In this document: piece by piece, positions 2,144 through 42,090 of the stretch
Layout: the number at the start of each line of letters is the position of its first letter
Position numbering within the stretch: position 1 is the stretch's first letter
Source of the DNA: Escherichia phage vB_EcoM_RZ
Sequence record: MW598459
Length of the DNA: 64,000 nt
Reading direction: 5' to 3' (one strand)
Translations under genes and position numbers: made by a program
Notes under the pieces: generated by a model
Told to the model about the DNA's origin: nothing
The model's database searches: none
The model's input: the letters and a program-made list of their open reading frames with translations, nothing else

Positions 2144-2499
2144 TTGACAATTACCTTATAGCCTTTAACTTTAGAAAATGATTGGATTTTGGAACCGGTT
2201 TCTATCAACATATCTTCATTAGAAGAAGATAGCATTATATCCACGATTTGACCTTTACCGTATGGGTTGATAGAAACTTCTTCCTTGGCAATCATAGCTA
2301 AAAATCTATTTAACTGCATACCAAATTCAAGAGTCACTTCATGAATACGAAGGTTAAGCTGGTATACTTTCTTAACACCGTTAACTAAGGAAGCCATTTC
2401 GTCCCATGCATTACGTTGTTCTTCGCGAGGCTCTTCAATCAATTTAAGGGAATGGCCTTCGCCATCCCAATTTAGTTCCATAGGAATCATTTGAACCAT
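2140..2499 (-). CDS. Hypothetical protein (119 aa)
   Basis: ORF with ATGA-type overlap to downstream gene. Confidence 0.45.
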
Positions 2500-14874: not shown

Positions 14875-15582
14875 TTATTCCTTGCTTTGTTTCAAGTATT
14901 CTATCGCGGTTTCTAATGAAGCAATATTGTCTTTAAACATGCCCAAGCCTATATTGCATTTTGAGCATAAAATACCCCGGACTTTACCAGTTGAATGACA
15001 GTGGTCTACATTGAACCAAGTGCTTTTTGATAAAGAAGTCGAATTGTTTGTTAGTTTTATTTTACAAATTTCACAATACGGAGTATCCTCAATTAACTTC
15101 AAAACGTCGCGCTTTTTCATCTTTATGGAATGACTATATGGCAAGTCCAGTGATTGAGTATCTCTTGCTTCTTTACCACAGGAATCTGAACAATATTTTT
15201 GAGTCCTATTCGTAGCCGTATACTTAGTATCACACACAGGACAAATACGCTCTTCTTCAAATATCCCACCACCCTGGCATTTAACGGAACAAAATTCATG
15301 GTAACCAGTAGCAAATGTGTGATAGTTAACAGGTTTACCGCACTTACATAAAACTTTTCCTTTTATATCATGTAAAATACGATAACAGACCTCATTATAT
15401 GGGTGTTGGTCTCTTTTACCTCCTTGACAATGCAGTGCTTCTGTTCTAAAGACATTTGCTTCTTCTGGATATTTTTCCCAGAATTTTTTGGCAAATTCTA
15501 AATCATTTTTAAACAAATTACCGTTAAGACGATTCGGGTTCTTAGTTAAAAGATTTTCTTCAATAAATTGTTTTAAGTTCAT
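14875..15582 (-). CDS. Endonuclease VII-like His-Me finger nuclease with Cys-rich N-terminus (putative freestanding homing endonuclease)
   Basis: C-terminal NVDHCHSTGKVRGILCSKCNIGLG parallels DHDHELNGPKAGKVRGLLCNLCN of gp49 in this window; track start is GTG, ATG at 15582 preferred. Confidence 0.65.
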   Translation of the reverse strand: MNLKQFIEENLLTKNPNRLNGNLFKNDLEFAKKFWEKYPEEANVFRTEALHCQGGKRDQHPYNEVCYRILHDIKGKVLCKCGKPVNYHTFATGYHEFCSVKCQGGGIFEEERICPVCDTKYTATNRTQKYCSDSCGKEARDTQSLDLPYSHSIKMKKRDVLKLIEDTPYCEICKIKLTNNSTSLSKSTWFNVDHCHSTGKVRGILCSKCNIGLGMFKDNIASLETAIEYLKQSKE

Positions 15583-15588
15583 GGAGGT

Positions 15589-15613
15589 ATTATAAGTCAC
15601 ATATTTTAAAGCA
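15589..15613 (-). promoter_or_regulatory. Putative T4 middle promoter (MotA box TGCTTTA, 12 nt, TATAAT)
   Basis: Minus strand TTTTGCTTTAAAATATGTGACTTATAAT immediately upstream of the nuclease gene. Confidence 0.45.
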
Positions 15614-15636
15614 AAAAGGCCCGAAGGCCTTTTATT
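15605..15636 (-). terminator. Rho-independent terminator
   Basis: AGGCC-CGAA-GGCCT hairpin followed by T-run on the minus strand, directly after the upstream ORF stop. Confidence 0.55.
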
Positions 15637-16030
15637 TGAATCGAAGCTGCTCTAACATTTTAATAGCTTGTAGACGTCCGGCTTCAGTTTTAACCGTAAT
15701 AATAACATCACCGCCGGTAACAACGATATCCTCTTTTGATTCCTGTTCGGTTATTTCAGAATCACATTCCGGGACTTCTTCAAAATATTTAAATTCATCA
15801 CCAAAAATAAGACCGGTTCCATTACGACTATGGAAAGAAAACCCAGTTCCATCGATAGTACTAAATTCCGTAACAACATTTGCTTCCATCTTAGTGACTG
15901 AAAACTCTTTGGTAGTAACCAAATCAATGATAGAGGTTCCTTGTTGGTTCAAAATGCTACCAGGCATACCAACATGTTTAAGGAAGCCATCTAAATCTTT
16001 AATGTGATAACTCTTTCCAATTTTAAACAT
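15632..16030 (-). CDS. Hypothetical protein (about 133 aa from internal Met)
   Basis: ORF 15632-16207 trimmed to the Met preceded by SD GAGGA; the longer form overlaps the lipoprotein gene. Confidence 0.45.
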   Translation of the reverse strand: MFKIGKSYHIKDLDGFLKHVGMPGSILNQQGTSIIDLVTTKEFSVTKMEANVVTEFSTIDGTGFSFHSRNGTGLIFGDEFKYFEEVPECDSEITEQESKEDIVVTGGDVIITVKTEAGRLQAIKMLEQLRFK

Positions 16031-16037
16031 AATATCC

Positions 16038-16298
16038 TCATTCAAATCGGATGGTTGAATTCTTAAACAGCAATCCAGAACAAACGGTTCCTTCAACTTT
16101 CTTACCAGTTGGGCCCACGGCTGTAAAACCTGTGTGTTGAAAATCATCTTTACCACAAGATAACCAGTTATATCCGGTGATTTGGATTTGCTCATAGCCG
16201 TTTGCATCTAATACACGAATGGCATTATCTGCATCAGTACAACCAGCCAATGAAACCGCCAGTACCAGTGCGGCAATAGAACGATTAATGTATTTCAT
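16038..16298 (-). CDS. Putative lipoprotein (signal peptide with lipobox LAGC)
   Basis: MKYINRSIAALVLAVSLAGCTDAD...; SD GAGGA upstream. Confidence 0.55.
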   Translation of the reverse strand: MKYINRSIAALVLAVSLAGCTDADNAIRVLDANGYEQIQITGYNWLSCGKDDFQHTGFTAVGPTGKKVEGTVCSGLLFKNSTIRFE

Positions 16299-16304
16299 AA
16301 TTCC

Positions 16305-16481
16305 TCACTTAGTCAGCAGGTCGTAAAAACCGCCATTAACATGTTTAGGAGCCGAGACTAACCGAACAGCCAGCCGATGGCAATCAGGGCAAACATCATT
16401 ATCTCTTTCGGAGATTTTCTTGATTTTTTCGTATTCTTTCGCGCAGTCTTCGGATTGACATTTGTAGTCATAAAGTGGCAT
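16305..16481 (-). CDS. FmdB-like zinc-ribbon protein (58 aa, not in track)
   Basis: My own translation MPLYDYKCQSEDCAKEYEKIKKISERDNDVCPDCH...; CxxC..(17)..CxxC arrangement. Confidence 0.45.
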   Translation of the reverse strand: MPLYDYKCQSEDCAKEYEKIKKISERDNDVCPDCHRLAVRLVSAPKHVNGGFYDLLTK

Positions 16482-16482
16482 G

Positions 16483-16857
16483 TTATTCCTTAAAGTGTGC
16501 TTTCAACATCTGGTAAACGGTCCAGGCTTCAGAGTTATTAGAAATTGTGATTTTAGTCAAAGGGAATTCGCTTGGTTCAAATGTTTCATCAGCGTCTTCG
16601 CATTCATCTTCAGTATCGTCATCTTTTTCTTCTTCAAAGAAACGACGTTCATCTTCCTTTATGAATATTCTCTCCATTCCACCGGTCGAAAATTCTATCC
16701 GATATACATCACCACCTTCAATTCCGACTGGTCTAAATCCTTCACCATTGATTATAGCATCAGCTATATTATCATTATCAGAGCATAACAAACGAAATCT
16801 GCTTTCAGCAACATTATCTTTAAAATAATACCATTTATCAGTTTCAAATTTCAACAT
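16483..16857 (-). CDS. Hypothetical acidic protein (about 125 aa from internal Met)
   Basis: ORF trimmed to MLKFETDKWYYF...; acidic stretch EEEKDDDTEDECEDADE. Confidence 0.4.
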   Translation of the reverse strand: MLKFETDKWYYFKDNVAESRFRLLCSDNDNIADAIINGEGFRPVGIEGGDVYRIEFSTGGMERIFIKEDERRFFEEEKDDDTEDECEDADETFEPSEFPLTKITISNNSEAWTVYQMLKAHFKE

Positions 16858-17074
16858 GATAAGTCTCCTTCCAAAAATCTGTACCATCTTCTGATTCTTC
16901 GCGGAACAGCGCATAGCTAGGTAATTCCGCACCTTCATACGCATACACATAAATGATATCAGTGGTGCAAAGAAATTCATTGATGTTTTTCTTAACAATC
17001 ACTTTATCACTTTCAGCGGTTTCCCAGAACTCTTCAGCGGTCAAGGAAGTGGTCACACAATCTTCATTAAACAT
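16844..17074 (-). CDS. Hypothetical protein (76 aa)
   Basis: ORF in minus-strand array. Confidence 0.4.
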   Translation of the reverse strand: MFNEDCVTTSLTAEEFWETAESDKVIVKKNINEFLCTTDIIYVYAYEGAELPSYALFREESEDGTDFWKETYHVEI

Positions 17075-17122
17075 AATATTCTCCTCATTGATAGGGCAAA
17101 ATTACCCTATCATTTTTATAAT

Positions 17123-17683
17123 TTAGGCAAAATGAATATCAGCATACTCAACGATAAAGCTCTCAGGAACAACCTTAAAGGTTCCAAGGAACACAATATT
17201 ATACAGTTTAACCCCTTCTTCAACCCACTGGTCGGTGATGTAACCAGACATGCTAGTGGTTTCATAAGTACCAAAAGGTTCGTCAACATATTCAAACGGT
17301 TTAGGTGAAACAAAAAAGACACCTTTGCCCAATTTCCATTTAAAATCAACCCCAACATGAGACTGGTCAATGGTTTCAACGTCTTGAGCAATTACGCCAC
17401 GGATATCATTGCTTTCGCACACATATCCATCATGGGATTCAACTTCTTCAACCACAGGGAGGTTGGCGGCAGTAATAGCAGTTGATTCCAGGAATTTAGC
17501 ACGAACATAAGCGAATTGAGTTTCAGTCTGACCATTTTTGGGAATGATACGCACCTTTACTTCATTATCAGGATGGTCAACAAAAATATCAGCACGAATA
17601 CTGACAACCTCAACAAAACGTCCAGCGGCTCTTGAACGAGATTTTTTGGATACGCGAACGATTTCGCCAGCTTCAACTTTCAT
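17123..17683 (-). CDS. Hypothetical protein (186 aa), paralog of 17763-18515
   Basis: C-terminus GYITDQWVEEGVKLYNIVFLGTFKVVPESFIVEY resembles GWVTDQWIEESVELLNVVHAGEFTVVPRSMVVEI of the neighbour. Confidence 0.5.
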   Translation of the reverse strand: MKVEAGEIVRVSKKSRSRAAGRFVEVVSIRADIFVDHPDNEVKVRIIPKNGQTETQFAYVRAKFLESTAITAANLPVVEEVESHDGYVCESNDIRGVIAQDVETIDQSHVGVDFKWKLGKGVFFVSPKPFEYVDEPFGTYETTSMSGYITDQWVEEGVKLYNIVFLGTFKVVPESFIVEYADIHFA

Positions 17684-17710
17684 AATTTTCTCTCTTGGTT
17701 AATAAGTTTA

Positions 17711-17754
17711 TTCTCCAGTGGGGTCATTATACTCTGACCCCAAGAGTTTGTACA
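17711..17754 (-). promoter_or_regulatory. T4-type early promoter (44 bp duplicate of 6071-6114)
   Basis: Minus strand TGTACA, 17 nt, TATAAT. Confidence 0.6.
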
Positions 17755-17762
17755 CTTTAAAT

Positions 17763-18515
17763 TTAATTAAAAATTTCAACAACCATGGAACGTGGTACAA
17801 CAGTAAATTCACCAGCATGGACAACGTTCAGGAGTTCAACACTCTCTTCAATCCACTGGTCTGTTACCCAACCACAAATGGAACTGTTAAATGGGCGTTT
17901 GATTTGAACTGGTTTACACAGCAAGTCAATAGGGTCACCCAGTTCGCTAACTTCTTCCAGCAGTACAGATTCACGTGGATAAAGGATAGCTTCAAGATTG
18001 TCACCTGATTCATTGACTGCAGTAAATTCAAAGATGCTTTGGTGATTGTGGTACTTAACTGTTTTAACTGTAAATGGAGCAAATCCAAAAATACCTTTCA
18101 GTACCCGCCAACCGGCATTCAATGCATTAGTATTATCAAAATCACCATATCCAACAAGTTGATAGGTTTTGTCAACTTTGATAGGAGCTTCTTCAACTTC
18201 TTTGAAGAGTTCAATCTCAGCTTCATAAACCATAATTTTTTCTACTTCATTTGTATCAAGGCGACGTGCATGCAGAATATATGCTTTATCAAACCAGTTA
18301 CTTTTTACAAAAGTTTCAACAATAAATTCACCTTCACCTAAAGCATCAGTCAGAGTATTATACCCAGAAACCATAGCTGCATTTTGAATAATAGGTTCAA
18401 TCAGTTGATAAGTTTTGTTAATTTCAATAGTCATATTTTGTTTCTCAAGTTTTAATGGTTTAATTGGGCGAACATACATACTTACAACATCAAAGTCAAT
18501 AAATTCTGGTTTCAT
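17763..18515 (-). CDS. Hypothetical protein (250 aa), paralog of 17123-17683
   Basis: Shared C-terminal motif with neighbour. Confidence 0.5.
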   Translation of the reverse strand: MKPEFIDFDVVSMYVRPIKPLKLEKQNMTIEINKTYQLIEPIIQNAAMVSGYNTLTDALGEGEFIVETFVKSNWFDKAYILHARRLDTNEVEKIMVYEAEIELFKEVEEAPIKVDKTYQLVGYGDFDNTNALNAGWRVLKGIFGFAPFTVKTVKYHNHQSIFEFTAVNESGDNLEAILYPRESVLLEEVSELGDPIDLLCKPVQIKRPFNSSICGWVTDQWIEESVELLNVVHAGEFTVVPRSMVVEIFN

Positions 18516-18772
18516 TATGCAACCTTATTGAACATCGCCAGTTGATTAGGTTGTACAACCATAATTTCACGACGACCTTTTGCATTTGACACGTTCAGGT
18601 AGATGCCTTTGTTCATATCAGTTTCTTTATCATATACCGCAATTTTATTGACAGTAAAGATTTTACCACGAATATTTGCAAATGCACATTCAAACGCTTT
18701 AGTCAGACCTGCTTCAGCAGCTTGAAGAGCGGACATTTCATATTGTTGGCCAATTTCAAAAGAAGTAATCAT
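18515..18772 (-). CDS. Hypothetical protein (about 85 aa)
   Basis: ORF trimmed: the first 16 codons of the track ORF translate the conserved leader box and the promoter -10. Confidence 0.45.
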   Translation of the reverse strand: MITSFEIGQQYEMSALQAAEAGLTKAFECAFANIRGKIFTVNKIAVYDKETDMNKGIYLNVSNAKGRREIMVVQPNQLAMFNKVA

Positions 18773-18796
18773 TTTGTTATCCTCATCAGTAGTTGA

Positions 18797-18834
18797 TGAG
18801 ATGATTATGTCTCTTTCCATTGGCCTTGTACACT
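18797..18834 (-). promoter_or_regulatory. T4-type early promoter
   Basis: Minus strand TGTACA (18832-18827), 17 nt, CATAAT (18809-18804), then leader hairpin CTCATCAACTACTGATGAGG. Confidence 0.55.
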
Positions 18835-18839
18835 ACTTT

Positions 18840-19523
18840 TTATCGTTTTTTCGGTAAAGATAACGGGTCTGCATCTTCTTCGGAAGGAACTTCATCTAAA
18901 CCAAGGGCATAGCGCTGGGCATACTTCAACATCAAAATATCTTTCGCGCAGTCATGTACCGAATCGTGCGCCACAAATCCATCTAAAGTCCCTTTCGGTA
19001 ATGGGGTTTCACACATCTTACGGACGAGTGACAAGGCTTCGATGGCTGTCCTGATATCTCGCTGGTTCCAGAATACAACCGGCTCCAGGTCATAGGTATT
19101 CAATTCACGCTCAGGAATCCCCTCATTGCGCTGTAGGTCGCGGATAAGGTCAACAAACAACGGGAAGTCAAAAGACATCCCACGGCACCACATAAGGCTT
19201 TCGTATTTGTTAATTCCATTGCCATTCAGATAGTCAATCGCCTGTTGGATACCGGTCAGAGTATCAACATCATGCGCAGAAGGAACCAGGTTAACACGAG
19301 CTTCTGGTGATTGTTTTTTCCACCAACCCATGGTTGTTGTGTCGAACAGACGTTTTCCTTTTTGGTATTCGAGACTGAACTTAATACGTTTGCCGCGATT
19401 AACCAGAGTTTCGAATGATTCCACAATAGCAGGGTCAGATTCGAATGTAATCAGGGCCAGGTCAATAACGGCCCCCTTCGAGCCGTTTCCCAGAGTTTCA
19501 AAGTCAATAATAGCATCAATCAT
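18840..19523 (-). CDS. dexA: Exonuclease A (DexA)
   Basis: 227 aa; N-terminus MIDAIIDFETLGNGSKGAVIDLA matches recalled T4 DexA (DEDD exonuclease). Confidence 0.88.
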   Translation of the reverse strand: MIDAIIDFETLGNGSKGAVIDLALITFESDPAIVESFETLVNRGKRIKFSLEYQKGKRLFDTTTMGWWKKQSPEARVNLVPSAHDVDTLTGIQQAIDYLNGNGINKYESLMWCRGMSFDFPLFVDLIRDLQRNEGIPERELNTYDLEPVVFWNQRDIRTAIEALSLVRKMCETPLPKGTLDGFVAHDSVHDCAKDILMLKYAQRYALGLDEVPSEEDADPLSLPKKR

Positions 19524-19791
19524 CGCACATCTCTTTTAATTTCTGAATTTCGCCAGCAACATAATCAGAGATAAAAATCCCTGGCTCTTCATTGTTAAAA
19601 TATTCAATCGCGGCCATACGTTTCCGAATAAGGTCCAGTTCCAGTAAAACGTAATTGCCCTGTTGGACGATAGTCGGATTATCTTCGAAAAATTCAACCG
19701 CGTCCTGAATACCATAGATAAGAGTATCTAAATCTTCTTTATGTACTTTATACATAATATGCGTCGTACCTCGCTCGTGTGATTCCAACAT
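19516..19791 (-). CDS. Hypothetical protein (91 aa)
   Basis: ORF between dexA and dda. Confidence 0.4.
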   Translation of the reverse strand: MLESHERGTTHIMYKVHKEDLDTLIYGIQDAVEFFEDNPTIVQQGNYVLLELDLIRKRMAAIEYFNNEEPGIFISDYVAGEIQKLKEMCDD

Positions 19792-41863: not shown

Positions 41864-42055
41864 TTAATCAAAGTATTCATATGCGAACCAGGCATTGTGT
41901 CTGTTCGCGATTATTTTAACATATTCTTCACCGAAAGCGTTTTGCAAGTCACGTTCAGTGACAAGGTGTTCATCTTTCGAAAAGGTATTAACTAACACAT
42001 ACCGTTTAATTTCAGGGACAGCCAATAAATGCTGCCCGGTTAAGAAGTCAGCCAT
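41864..42055 (-). CDS. Hypothetical protein (63 aa)
   Basis: ORF in minus-strand array. Confidence 0.4.
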   Translation of the reverse strand: MADFLTGQHLLAVPEIKRYVLVNTFSKDEHLVTERDLQNAFGEEYVKIIANRHNAWFAYEYFD

Positions 42056-42090
42056 AATAGCCTCTATTATAACATCCTTGTTTTAAAACA

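What the first reader, a model, noticed from the sequence alone, without database searches (positions are those of the whole stretch)
17123..18515. Tandem paralogous genes with a conserved C-terminal module
The 186 aa and 250 aa neighbours share a C-terminal block (G[YW][IV]TDQW[VI]EE.V.L.N[IV]V..G.F.VVP.S..VE) while their N-termini differ. This points to local duplication and divergence, possibly two specificities built on a common interaction domain, in the hyperplastic region between gene 39 and dexA.
Basis: seen in the sequence. Interest (0 to 1): 0.4.

Follow-up and report, generated by a model that had tools for sequence, protein, structure and literature searches.

The report
T4-like phage motB and motB.1 genes
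The two neighbouring genes are the known T4-type early genes motB and motB.1, whose shared C-terminal module and likely origin by duplication were published in 2021, so the finding is real but ordinary.

Summary
Two minus-strand ORFs, 17123-17683 (186 aa) and 17763-18515 (250 aa), share a C-terminal block: BLASTP 24/52 identical, E 4e-12; Smith-Waterman z = 16.5 against shuffles; not low complexity. Their N-termini are unrelated. The window is a T4-like phage of the SP18/VR26 group (Gaprivervirus). The 186-aa protein is MotB (Pfam PF17613, 194 bits). The 250-aa protein is the MotB.1 orthologue (phrog_2333, 7e-77; 93.6% identical to SP18 motB.1).

The shared C-terminal domain (CTD), the differing N-terminal domains and the duplication idea were published for T4 and relatives (Viruses 2021;13:84), and the SP18 pair is in that paper's tables. 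The MotB.1 N-terminal LSm-like fold was published in 2025.

- This clade's MotB.1 carries two tandem LSm-like modules.
- The shared block models as an acidic, SH3/Tudor-like five-strand barrel, not an OB-fold.
- It is under strong purifying selection, with no recent gene conversion between the two copies.
- Distant genera have one gene with a KOW domain, a linker motif and this block, probably the ancestral form.
- The T4 reference motB.1 (119 aa) is cut short by one extra G that 13 other T4-type records lack.

The module's function is untested. My inference is that it binds protein or self-associates.

The parts
17123..17683 (-). motB gene (186 aa plus stop), the MotB 'modifier of transcription' / DNA-binding nucleoid-associated protein homologue
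   Evidence: Pfam PF17613 motB 1.5e-57, 194 bits. phrog_1671 1.9e-69 over its full length. 50.5% identical to T4 MotB and 71% to SP18 MotB. Lies between cef and motB.1, as in T4 and SP18.
17483..17683 (-). MotB N-terminal KOW/SH3-like barrel (residues 1-67), basic
   Evidence: The AF2 model has five strands, E8-11, 23-30, 41-46, 56-61 and 65-67. Family mean net charge +5.2, pI 9.9. KOW assignment published in PMC7827196.
17363..17482 (-). MotB acidic disordered linker (residues 68-107). It includes a 23-residue stretch, VESHDGYVCESNDIRGVIAQD (about 17375-17443), that is absent from SP18 and T4 MotB but present in JS98-type MotB
   Evidence: pLDDT below 50 for residues 69-107. Alignment A2. Linker net charge -7.1.
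17141..17332 (-). MotB copy of the shared C-terminal block (residues 118-181): a five-strand small beta-barrel with a long first hairpin
   Evidence: hhalign against the MotB.1 CTD 99.4%, E 4.7e-22. AF2 strands E121-134, 138-155, 158-165, 168-173, short helix, 177-180, pLDDT 85-94.
17726..17754 (-). Promoter-like site for motB (TGTACA-17-TATAAT) in the motB.1-motB intergenic region, inside a 7-bp inverted repeat
   Evidence: 10/12 match. Sequence read. Counterpart TTTACA-17-TATAAT upstream of T4 motB. Consensus match only; function not shown.
17763..18515 (-). motB.1 gene (250 aa plus stop). Its ATG shares one base with the stop codon of the upstream 101-aa gene (TAATG)
   Evidence: phrog_2333 7.2e-77. 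93.6% identical to the SP18 gene annotated motB.1. T4 MotB.1 aligns to residues 112-222, E 1.3e-17. Pfam motB 30.6 bits, on residues 210-246 only.
18435..18515 (-). MotB.1 'leader' (residues 1-27): a disordered relic of the ancestral linker motif (IDFDVVSMYVRPIKPL)
   Evidence: pLDDT below 50. Conserved across the family (A1). dN/dS 0.27 at dS 0.93, so it is translated. A leader HMM finds the same motif just upstream of DPTDLLC in KOW-type relatives, with 0 hits in the shuffled control.
18192..18434 (-). MotB.1 module A (residues 28-108): LSm/SH3-like alpha/beta module, the one found in most Tequatrovirus MotB.1 proteins
   Evidence: A1. AF2 elements E35-38, H46-59, E63-71, E78-85, E91-97, H98-103, E104-107. 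Weak hits to GoF-like phrog_622/3710.
17940..18191 (-). MotB.1 module B (residues 109-192): a second LSm/SH3-like module, the type found alone in T4 MotB.1
   Evidence: Module A against B: hhalign 98.9%, E 1.7e-17 over 78 columns; Smith-Waterman z 6.3, 0/2000 shuffles. Same order of secondary-structure elements as A. T4 MotB.1 aligns here.
17766..17939 (-). MotB.1 copy of the shared C-terminal block (residues 193-250): DPIDLLC cap plus a five-strand small beta-barrel, almost invariant in the MotB.1 lineage
   Evidence: A1 invariant columns C214-G235. AF2 strands E202-205, 213-223, 226-233, 236-241, short helix, 245-247. pI about 4.4. dN/dS 0.16-0.27 in the core.
17205..17252 (.). DNA trace of the shared block: a 48-nt direct repeat, 75% identical to 17833-17880
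   Evidence: the repeat finder family D2.
18152..18184 (.). DNA trace of the internal A/B module duplication: a 33-nt direct repeat, 79% identical to 18398-18430, spaced 246 nt (82 codons)
   Evidence: the repeat finder family D5.

Best explanation
The two genes are motB and motB.1, early genes of T4-like phages.

Origin. They are ancient paralogues through their C-terminal part only. The ancestral gene, still present as a single copy in Pectobacterium PM2, Klebsiella PWKp16 and Enterobacter ZX14 phages, encoded a basic KOW-like barrel, a linker motif (VDTDVxSMYxTPxLP) and a C-terminal small beta-barrel (DPTDLLC...GWVTDQWIEDGVELLNVVH...VVPRS). After duplication, motB kept the KOW domain and lengthened the first hairpin of the C-terminal barrel. 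motB.1 lost the KOW domain and kept the linker relic as a disordered leader. It also acquired GoF-like LSm/SH3-like module(s) between that leader and the barrel: two in tandem (A and B) in this phage clade.

Mechanism (inference, not shown). In MotB the basic KOW-like N-terminal domain contacts DNA. The shared acidic SH3/Tudor-like C-terminal barrel is a protein-protein module, either for self-association (the cooperativity that lets MotB spread on and compact DNA) or for a common partner. MotB.1 is acidic throughout, so it would use the same barrel to reach the same partner or assembly while presenting different LSm-like binding modules.
For: Identity and paralogy (shown):
- Pfam and PHROG hits, synteny with T4 and SP18, BLASTP and hhalign.
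- The literature reports the same shared CTD and proposes duplication (PMC7827196). The SP18 orthologues are in its tables.

Architecture (shown):
- Alignment A1, module A/B homology, DNA repeat D5, AF2 model.

Ancestral form (inferred from shown data):
- The single-copy genes combine a MotB-type KOW domain (hhalign 95%) with a MotB.1-type CTD (99.3-99.9%).
- Alignment A4 shows intermediate forms.
- The leader HMM hits the linker motif in KOW-type members, with none in the shuffled control.

Old duplication, protein-level constraint (shown):
- Third-position identity is 43% between the two copies. CTD core dN/dS is 0.16-0.27 at dS 0.6-0.8.

Mechanism (inferred):
- The CTD core is acidic (pI 4.2-4.7) and the MotB NTD is basic (pI 9.9). 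Whole MotB.1 has pI 4.7.
- Both CTD models have the order beta1-4, short helix, beta5, which is the SH3-like arrangement.
- MotB footprints suggest spreading 'perhaps through protein-protein cooperativity' (PMC6070864).
Against: - No experiment separates the domains, so the CTD's role is unknown.
- Small beta-barrels, including SH3-like ones, often bind nucleic acids. The published HHpred analysis assigned the MotB CTD to a DNA-binding OB-fold.
- The models are of medium confidence overall (mean pLDDT 72-75).
- No multimer prediction could be run.
- T4 motB.1 deletion has no phenotype in the laboratory, so a joint function with MotB is unproven.
- The direction of evolution (KOW lost, or KOW gained) is inferred from distribution, not from a rooted tree.
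Confidence: 0.55

Rival explanations
1. The shared C-terminal block is itself the nucleic-acid-binding domain (the published 'OB-fold/cold-shock-like' assignment). MotB and MotB.1 would then both be DNA- or RNA-binding proteins through this block, with the N-terminal domains modulating them.
Confidence: 0.25
2. The similarity reflects recent recombination or gene conversion between neighbouring genes in a mosaic, hyperplastic region, not an old duplication kept by selection.
For: A 48-nt direct DNA repeat, 75% identical, links the two genes (D2). The region is mosaic: the window's motB is closer to JS98-type genes (82-85%) than to SP18 (71%), while its motB.1 is 93.6% identical to SP18. Deletion products that join motB.2 to the CTD exist (P0269).
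Against: Over the 35-codon core, nucleotide identity is only 60%, with 43% at third positions. Both lineages are separately conserved in more than 700 phage genomes. Lineage-specific residues are fixed (VKLYN...VFLG in MotB, VELLN...VHAG in MotB.1).
Confidence: 0.03
3. The shared barrel docks on a specific host machine, for example RNA polymerase beta (as the Tudor-like domains of UvrD/PcrA, CarD and Mfd do) or H-NS/StpA. MotB and MotB.1 would then be two adaptors delivering different N-terminal activities to the same host target.
Confidence: 0.15

Closest known systems
Bacteriophage T4 MotB (Pfam PF17613; phrog_1671), a DNA-binding, nucleoid-compacting early protein
   Same: The 186-aa protein is its orthologue. 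It matches the full model (194 bits) and is 50.5% identical. It has the same KOW-like NTD with the VSxxSRSKAAG motif, the same CTD and the same position downstream of motB.1 and upstream of cef, and a conserved promoter-like site lies upstream.
   Different: 24 residues longer, because of an acidic linker insertion shared with JS98-type MotB. No functional data exist for this phage.
Bacteriophage T4 MotB.1 (UniProt P39415; phrog_2333), an uncharacterised early protein with an LSm-like NTD and a MotB-like CTD
   Same: The 250-aa protein is its positional and sequence homologue. Module B plus the CTD align to T4 MotB.1 (E 1.3e-17), and the CTD profile match is 100% (E 8e-40). Same gene order.
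   Different: It has an extra N-terminal leader and a second LSm-like module (A), which T4 lacks. About 32 of 737 phage records have this two-module form at 80% identity or more. T4's reference protein is truncated to 119 aa by a frameshift, whereas the real T4 protein is 143 aa.
GoF / Frd.2 / MotB.1 LSm-like fold family of Tevenvirinae (Kim et al. 2025, PMC12152347)
   Same: Modules A and B have the bent beta-sheet-plus-helix pattern described for the MotB.1 NTD. There are weak PHROG hits to the GoF-like families phrog_622 and phrog_3710, and a Foldseek hit to the 225-aa GoF-like protein of phage PM2 (E 1.2e-5).
   Different: Sequence relation to GoF is not significant by hhalign with single sequences. 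GoF and Frd.2 lack the MotB-type C-terminal block.
SH3-like small beta-barrels: KOW (NusG/Spt5, EF-P domain I), Tudor/chromo/PWWP, UvrD/PcrA C-terminal domain, CarD
   Different: No sequence similarity: the CTD profile finds nothing in PDB sequences at E <= 10. No aromatic cage or KOW glycine-lysine motif is evident in the CTD. This is fold-level resemblance only.

Membership tests
Pfam PF17613 (motB, modifier of transcription) | Score above the curated gathering threshold (25 bits) | tested here: met
   186-aa protein: 194.4 bits across the model. 250-aa protein: 30.6 bits, covering only model positions 118-154 of 162. It is therefore a member through the C-terminal block only.
MotB proper (T4 MotB orthologues; 'Category 1' of PMC7827196) | N-terminal KOW-like domain (VSxxSRSKAAG...VKVR) joined to the long-hairpin CTD | tested here: met
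   Met by the 186-aa protein (A2 invariant columns; AF2). The 250-aa protein does not meet it: hhalign of modules A and B against the MotB NTD gives probability below 1%.
MotB proper | Non-specific DNA binding, nucleoid compaction, interplay with H-NS/StpA | not testable with these tools
   Known for T4 MotB only (PMC6070864, PMC7827196).
MotB.1 family (phrog_2333; 'Categories 2 and 4' of PMC7827196) | MotB.1-type short CTD (DPTDLLC...CGWVTDQWIEDGVELLNVVHAG) preceded by a non-KOW N-terminal module; gene immediately upstream of motB | tested here: met
   phrog_2333 7.2e-77 over residues 2-250. A1 invariant columns. Synteny. The SP18 orthologue is listed in the paper's supplementary table.
Tevenvirinae LSm-like fold family (GoF, MotB.1, Frd.2) | N-terminal bent five-stranded antiparallel beta-sheet module of about 80-90 residues | tested here: met
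   AF2 gives two such modules, each with helices. Module B aligns with the T4 MotB.1 NTD. The GoF-like protein of PM2 aligns by Foldseek. The sequence link to GoF itself is only weak.
OB-fold / cold-shock-like DNA-binding domain (the published assignment for the MotB CTD) | Five-stranded Greek-key barrel with the helix between beta3 and beta4; structural neighbours are OB-fold proteins | tested here: not met
KOW / Tudor (SH3-like) superfamily, for the shared CTD | SH3-like topology plus family sequence signatures (KOW G-K motif; Tudor aromatic cage) | tested here: inconclusive

The most novel reading that the evidence does not exclude
The shared acidic SH3-like barrel is a hetero- and homo-association module. 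Through it MotB.1 would co-assemble with MotB on DNA, or dock on the same host target such as H-NS/StpA or RNA polymerase, and so bring LSm-like (possibly RNA-binding) modules to MotB-coated nucleoid. In that reading motB and motB.1 form a two-component system. Published negative results for T4 MotB.1 may then be misleading if the construct followed the frameshift-truncated 119-aa reference sequence, which lacks three of the barrel's five strands.
Probability: 0.12. Interest if true: 0.5.

Novelty: already known. Interest (0 to 1): 0.15.

Why it matters
For the scan, this is an ordinary, correctly spotted feature: a conserved early-gene pair of T4-like phages whose shared module and duplication origin are already in the literature.

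The by-products could help people who work on these proteins:
- The T4 reference sequence (NC_000866/AF158101, UniProt P39415) truncates MotB.1 inside the shared barrel, whereas 13 other T4-type records encode 143 aa. Constructs built from the reference may lack a folded C-terminal domain.
- The shared module looks like an acidic SH3/Tudor-like barrel rather than a DNA-binding OB-fold. That moves the likely DNA-binding role in MotB to the basic KOW domain and predicts a protein-interaction role for the shared block.
- The family's probable ancestral architecture (KOW domain, linker motif, barrel) and the insertion of one or two LSm-like modules give a clear example of domain shuffling in the 39-dexA plastic region.

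Tried and rejected
- Chance or low complexity: rejected (z 16.5; entropy about 3.8-3.9 bits).
- Recent gene conversion between the two blocks: rejected (43% identity at third codon positions).
- More copies of the block or of the modules in the 64-kb window: none. Only weak hits at E about 0.01 at 792-1070 and 41867-42082, not pursued.
- The upstream 101-aa ORF, Cef, the GoF-like ORFs, T4 MotB.2 and the extra N-terminal module of P0008 as further copies of modules A/B or of the CTD: hhalign probabilities of 14% or less, so no support.
- A sequence relation of the CTD to the MotB KOW domain or to modules A/B (an internal duplication): none.
- A solved structure for either protein or for the CTD profile: none.
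- Rfam families on either strand of 16000-19600: only a sub-threshold plant snoRNA hit.
- Wider distribution of the block: an exhaustive HMM search of 1.84 billion representatives gave 42 hits. About 28 are small T4-like phage proteins. The long multi-stretch hits are CarboxypepD_reg or CARDB repeat proteins and phage tail-fibre repeat proteins (motif SGYATEQWVEDKHY), judged spurious or convergent.
- Similarity of the window MotB linker insertion (HDGYVCESNDIRGV) to the ancestral linker motif: suggestive by eye, but not detected by the leader HMM, so not claimed.
- The NAR 2021 MotB paper (PMC8450097) is not held in the library, so its content is cited only through other papers.

Full report
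OBSERVATION. The window carries two adjacent minus-strand ORFs exactly as described: 17123..17683 (186 aa) and 17763..18515 (250 aa). BLASTP gives a single significant alignment between them, residues 128-179 against 201-247, with 24/52 identities and E 4e-12. The Smith-Waterman score is 119. For 2000 shuffles it is 33 +/- 5 (z 16.5), and none reaches the observed value. The N-terminal parts are unrelated (z 1.5). Profile-profile comparison extends the homology over the whole C-terminal unit, MotB 118-181 against MotB.1 199-249 (99.4%, E 4.7e-22), with MotB carrying a longer first hairpin. A 48-nt direct repeat, 75% identical, is the DNA trace of the block. The window contains exactly two copies.

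IDENTITY. The region is 95% identical in DNA to phages TH40, MN01, DK-13 and SP18, of which SP18 and VR26 are annotated as genus Gaprivervirus. On the minus strand the gene order is dda, a DexA.2-like ORF, dexA, a 101-aa ORF, the 250-aa ORF, the 186-aa ORF, cef, a goF-like gene, and onwards towards gene 39. This is the T4 and SP18 order. The 186-aa protein is MotB: Pfam PF17613 at 194 bits, phrog_1671 at 2e-69, and 50.5% identity to T4 MotB. The 250-aa protein is the MotB.1 homologue: phrog_2333 at 7e-77 and 93.6% identity to the SP18 gene annotated motB.1. T4 MotB.1 aligns to its residues 112-222 at E 1.3e-17. Pfam's motB model reaches it at 30.6 bits, on residues 210-246 only. Some GenBank records already call it a 'Transcription regulator MotB domain-containing protein'.

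WHAT IS ALREADY PUBLISHED.
[quoted passage not shown] It suggests that one gene arose by duplication of the other, sorts 102 phage homologues into categories by NTD, and notes that 40 other genomes carry both genes.
- Its supplementary table lists the SP18 pair, YP_003934636 and YP_003934637, the orthologues of the two window genes.
- Kim et al. (PMC12152347) showed that the MotB.1 NTD is an LSm/SH3-like beta-barrel related to GoF and Frd.2, and that T4 motB.1 deletion has no laboratory phenotype.
- MotB itself binds DNA tightly and without sequence specificity, co-purifies with H-NS and StpA, alters H-NS footprints and doubles burst size.

ARCHITECTURE IN THIS PHAGE. An alignment of 38 homologues (A1) and the AF2 model (mean pLDDT 75) divide the 250-aa protein into four parts:
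- a disordered leader (residues 1-27);
- module A (28-108);
- module B (109-192);
- the C-terminal block (193-250).
Modules A and B are homologous: hhalign 98.9%, E 1.7e-17 over 78 columns; Smith-Waterman z 6.3; a 33-nt DNA repeat spaced 82 codons apart. They show the same order of strands and helices. Most Tequatrovirus MotB.1 proteins (about 180 aa) are leader + A + CTD. T4-type proteins are B + CTD. P0111 is leader + B + CTD. A 247-250-aa class has a further, unrelated N-terminal module. The leader + A + B + CTD form is confined to the window's clade: seven 90%-identity clusters, and about 32 of 737 phage records at 80% identity or more. The window's MotB has a basic five-strand N-terminal barrel (residues 1-67), an acidic disordered linker (69-107, with a 23-residue stretch absent from SP18 and T4), and a confident C-terminal barrel (121-180, pLDDT 85-94).

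THE SHARED MODULE.
- Fold pattern. Both models give five strands with a short helix between strands 4 and 5, and the last four strands are in register with the sequence alignment. That is the SH3-like arrangement; an OB-fold has its helix between strands 3 and 4.
- Model consistency. Foldseek aligns the MotB.1 CTD to a CTD-only MotB fragment at 1.7 A over 57 columns.
- No solved relative. No PDB sequence matches the CTD profile.
- Charge. The block is acidic in both lineages (core pI 4.2-4.7). The MotB NTD is basic (pI 9.9), and MotB.1 as a whole has pI 4.7.
- Selection. The core is under strong purifying selection: dN/dS 0.16-0.27 at dS 0.6-0.8 between this phage and Tequatroviruses. The two in-window copies share only 43% of third codon positions, so the duplication is old and no recent gene conversion has occurred.
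- Distribution. An exhaustive HMM search of 1.84 billion representative proteins finds the block in only about 28 clusters of small T4-like phage proteins. The other hits are unrelated repeat proteins.

EVOLUTION. Pectobacterium phage PM2, Klebsiella phage PWKp16 and Enterobacter phage ZX14 have a single gene with this block between dexA/motB.2 and cef. The PM2 and PWKp16 proteins combine a MotB-type KOW domain (hhalign 95%) with a MotB.1-type short CTD (99.3-99.9%). Just upstream of DPTDLLC, PWKp16 carries the motif VDTDVxSMYxTPxLP. An HMM of the MotB.1 leader recognises this motif in PWKp16 and, weakly, in PM2 (P0259, 4.4 bits), and also in several metagenomic KOW-type members. It finds none in the shuffled control. 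Alignment A4 shows intermediate forms with the DPTDLLC cap and a long hairpin. The simplest reading is an ancestral gene with a KOW domain, the linker motif and the barrel. After duplication, motB kept the KOW domain. motB.1 lost it, kept the linker relic as its leader (translated, dN/dS 0.27) and acquired LSm-like module(s) between leader and barrel. In P0243 the module sits before the motif, so insertion or recombination happened more than once. Copy number ranges from one (PM2, PWKp16, ZX14) through two (T4, SP18, this window) to three (PP01). About 200 genomes hold two MotB-type copies, since there are 941 places in 734 records.

MECHANISM (inference). No published experiment separates the domains. 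Because the basic charge of MotB lies in the KOW-like NTD and the shared barrel is acidic, I consider it most likely that the NTD contacts DNA. The shared barrel would then mediate protein-protein contacts. One possibility is self-association, which would explain the spreading 'perhaps through protein-protein cooperativity' seen in footprints (PMC6070864). The other is binding of a common partner. MotB.1 would use the same barrel with different, LSm-like, binding modules. I put this at roughly 0.45-0.5, against 0.25 for the published DNA-binding OB-fold idea and 0.15 for a specific host-target adaptor role. Homology and identity are near certain.

EXPRESSION SIGNALS. The 79-nt gap upstream of motB holds a promoter-like site (TGTACA-17-TATAAT, 10/12) that matches the T4 sequence upstream of motB. 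The motB.1 ATG overlaps the stop codon of the upstream 101-aa gene (TAATG). No Rfam family is present.

SIDE FINDING. The T4 reference (NC_000866.4 = AF158101.6) reads ...CAATGGATTGGAAGATGGCGTTGA, so MotB.1 ends at residue 119 (...GWVTDQWIGRWR*). Another T4 assembly reads ...ATTGAAGATGGC..., which gives a 143-aa protein with the complete barrel. tblastn shows 13 T4, T4T, RB55 and RB59 records with the intact frame; only the two reference accessions need two pieces. UniProt P39415 and the '13.8 kDa' MotB.1 of the 2025 study correspond to the truncated form, and that study took its recombination-plasmid coordinates from NC_000866.4. If the expression construct followed the reference, it lacked three of the five strands of the shared module.

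VERDICT. The feature is real and was read correctly, and it is already known: motB and motB.1. Interest is low.

Noticed in passing
L001 (T4 NC_000866.4) 2292-2320, minus strand; compare L003 (OZ035787.1) around position 630-660: The T4 reference motB.1 has one extra G (ATTGGAAGATGG where other records read ATTGAAGATGG). This truncates the protein to 119 aa inside the shared barrel. Thirteen other T4, T4T, RB55 and RB59 records encode an intact 143-aa MotB.1. UniProt P39415 and the published '13.8 kDa' MotB.1 follow the truncated form.
   Followed up: yes
window 17726-17750 (minus strand), motB.1-motB intergenic region: The -10 hexamer of the motB promoter-like site lies inside a 7-bp inverted repeat: GGGGTCA...TGACCCC here, GGGACCA...TGGTCCC in T4. 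Two positions differ, with compensating changes on both arms, which suggests a conserved hairpin (the 3' end of the motB.1 mRNA, or a promoter-overlapping structure).
   Followed up: no
window 17375-17443 (MotB residues 81-103): The window's MotB carries a 23-residue acidic linker stretch (VESHDGYVCESNDIRGVIAQD) that is absent from SP18 and T4 MotB but present in JS98-type MotB. motB here is about 82-85% identical to JS98-type proteins and 71% to SP18, while the adjacent motB.1 is 93.6% identical to SP18. The locus is therefore a recombination mosaic.
   Followed up: partly
window 14875-15600 (minus strand): A 241-aa ORF with a C-terminal Endonuclease VII / HNH-type domain (PF02945, 5e-18), apparently a Mob-like homing endonuclease. 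No ORF of this kind is annotated in the gene 39-goF stretch of SP18 examined here.
   Followed up: partly
window 15632-16207 and 16483-16857 (minus strand): Two more neighbouring ORFs both match the GoF-like family phrog_622 (E 4e-17 and 8e-29). They form a second set of paralogous LSm-like-module genes in the same plastic region. The 191-aa ORF overlaps the 39.1-like ORF, so its true start is probably the internal Met (MFKIGKSYH...).
   Followed up: partly
L006 (PP01 NC_054930.1) 1459-2001 and 2564-2983: PP01's motB.1 is annotated from an internal Met (141 aa), but the frame is open upstream and encodes the conserved leader (MKFNYNPEY...), so the start is probably mis-set. PP01 also has a third gene with the block, a second 'MotB-like' protein of 139 aa.
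   Followed up: partly
protein P0269 (43 aa, from the representative search): MKIYRVESSFSILDYEDGVELLNVVHAGDFSVVPRSAVVAILN joins the MotB.2 N-terminus to the last 27 residues of the MotB.1 block. It is a deletion remnant, like the 29-aa RB69 peptide mentioned in PMC7827196.
   Followed up: no
proteins P0257 (601 aa) and P0275 (454 aa): Phage tail-fibre-like proteins with the repeated motif SGYATEQWVEDKHYITG score above the Pfam motB gathering threshold (P0257: 29.3 bits against 25). This is probably a false-positive or convergent short motif in PF17613.
   Followed up: no
window 18515-18820 (minus strand): The 101-aa ORF upstream of motB.1 (phrog_17795, 6e-59) occupies the position of T4 motB.2 but shows no similarity to T4 MotB.2 (166 aa). 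This looks like gene replacement at that slot.
   Followed up: partly
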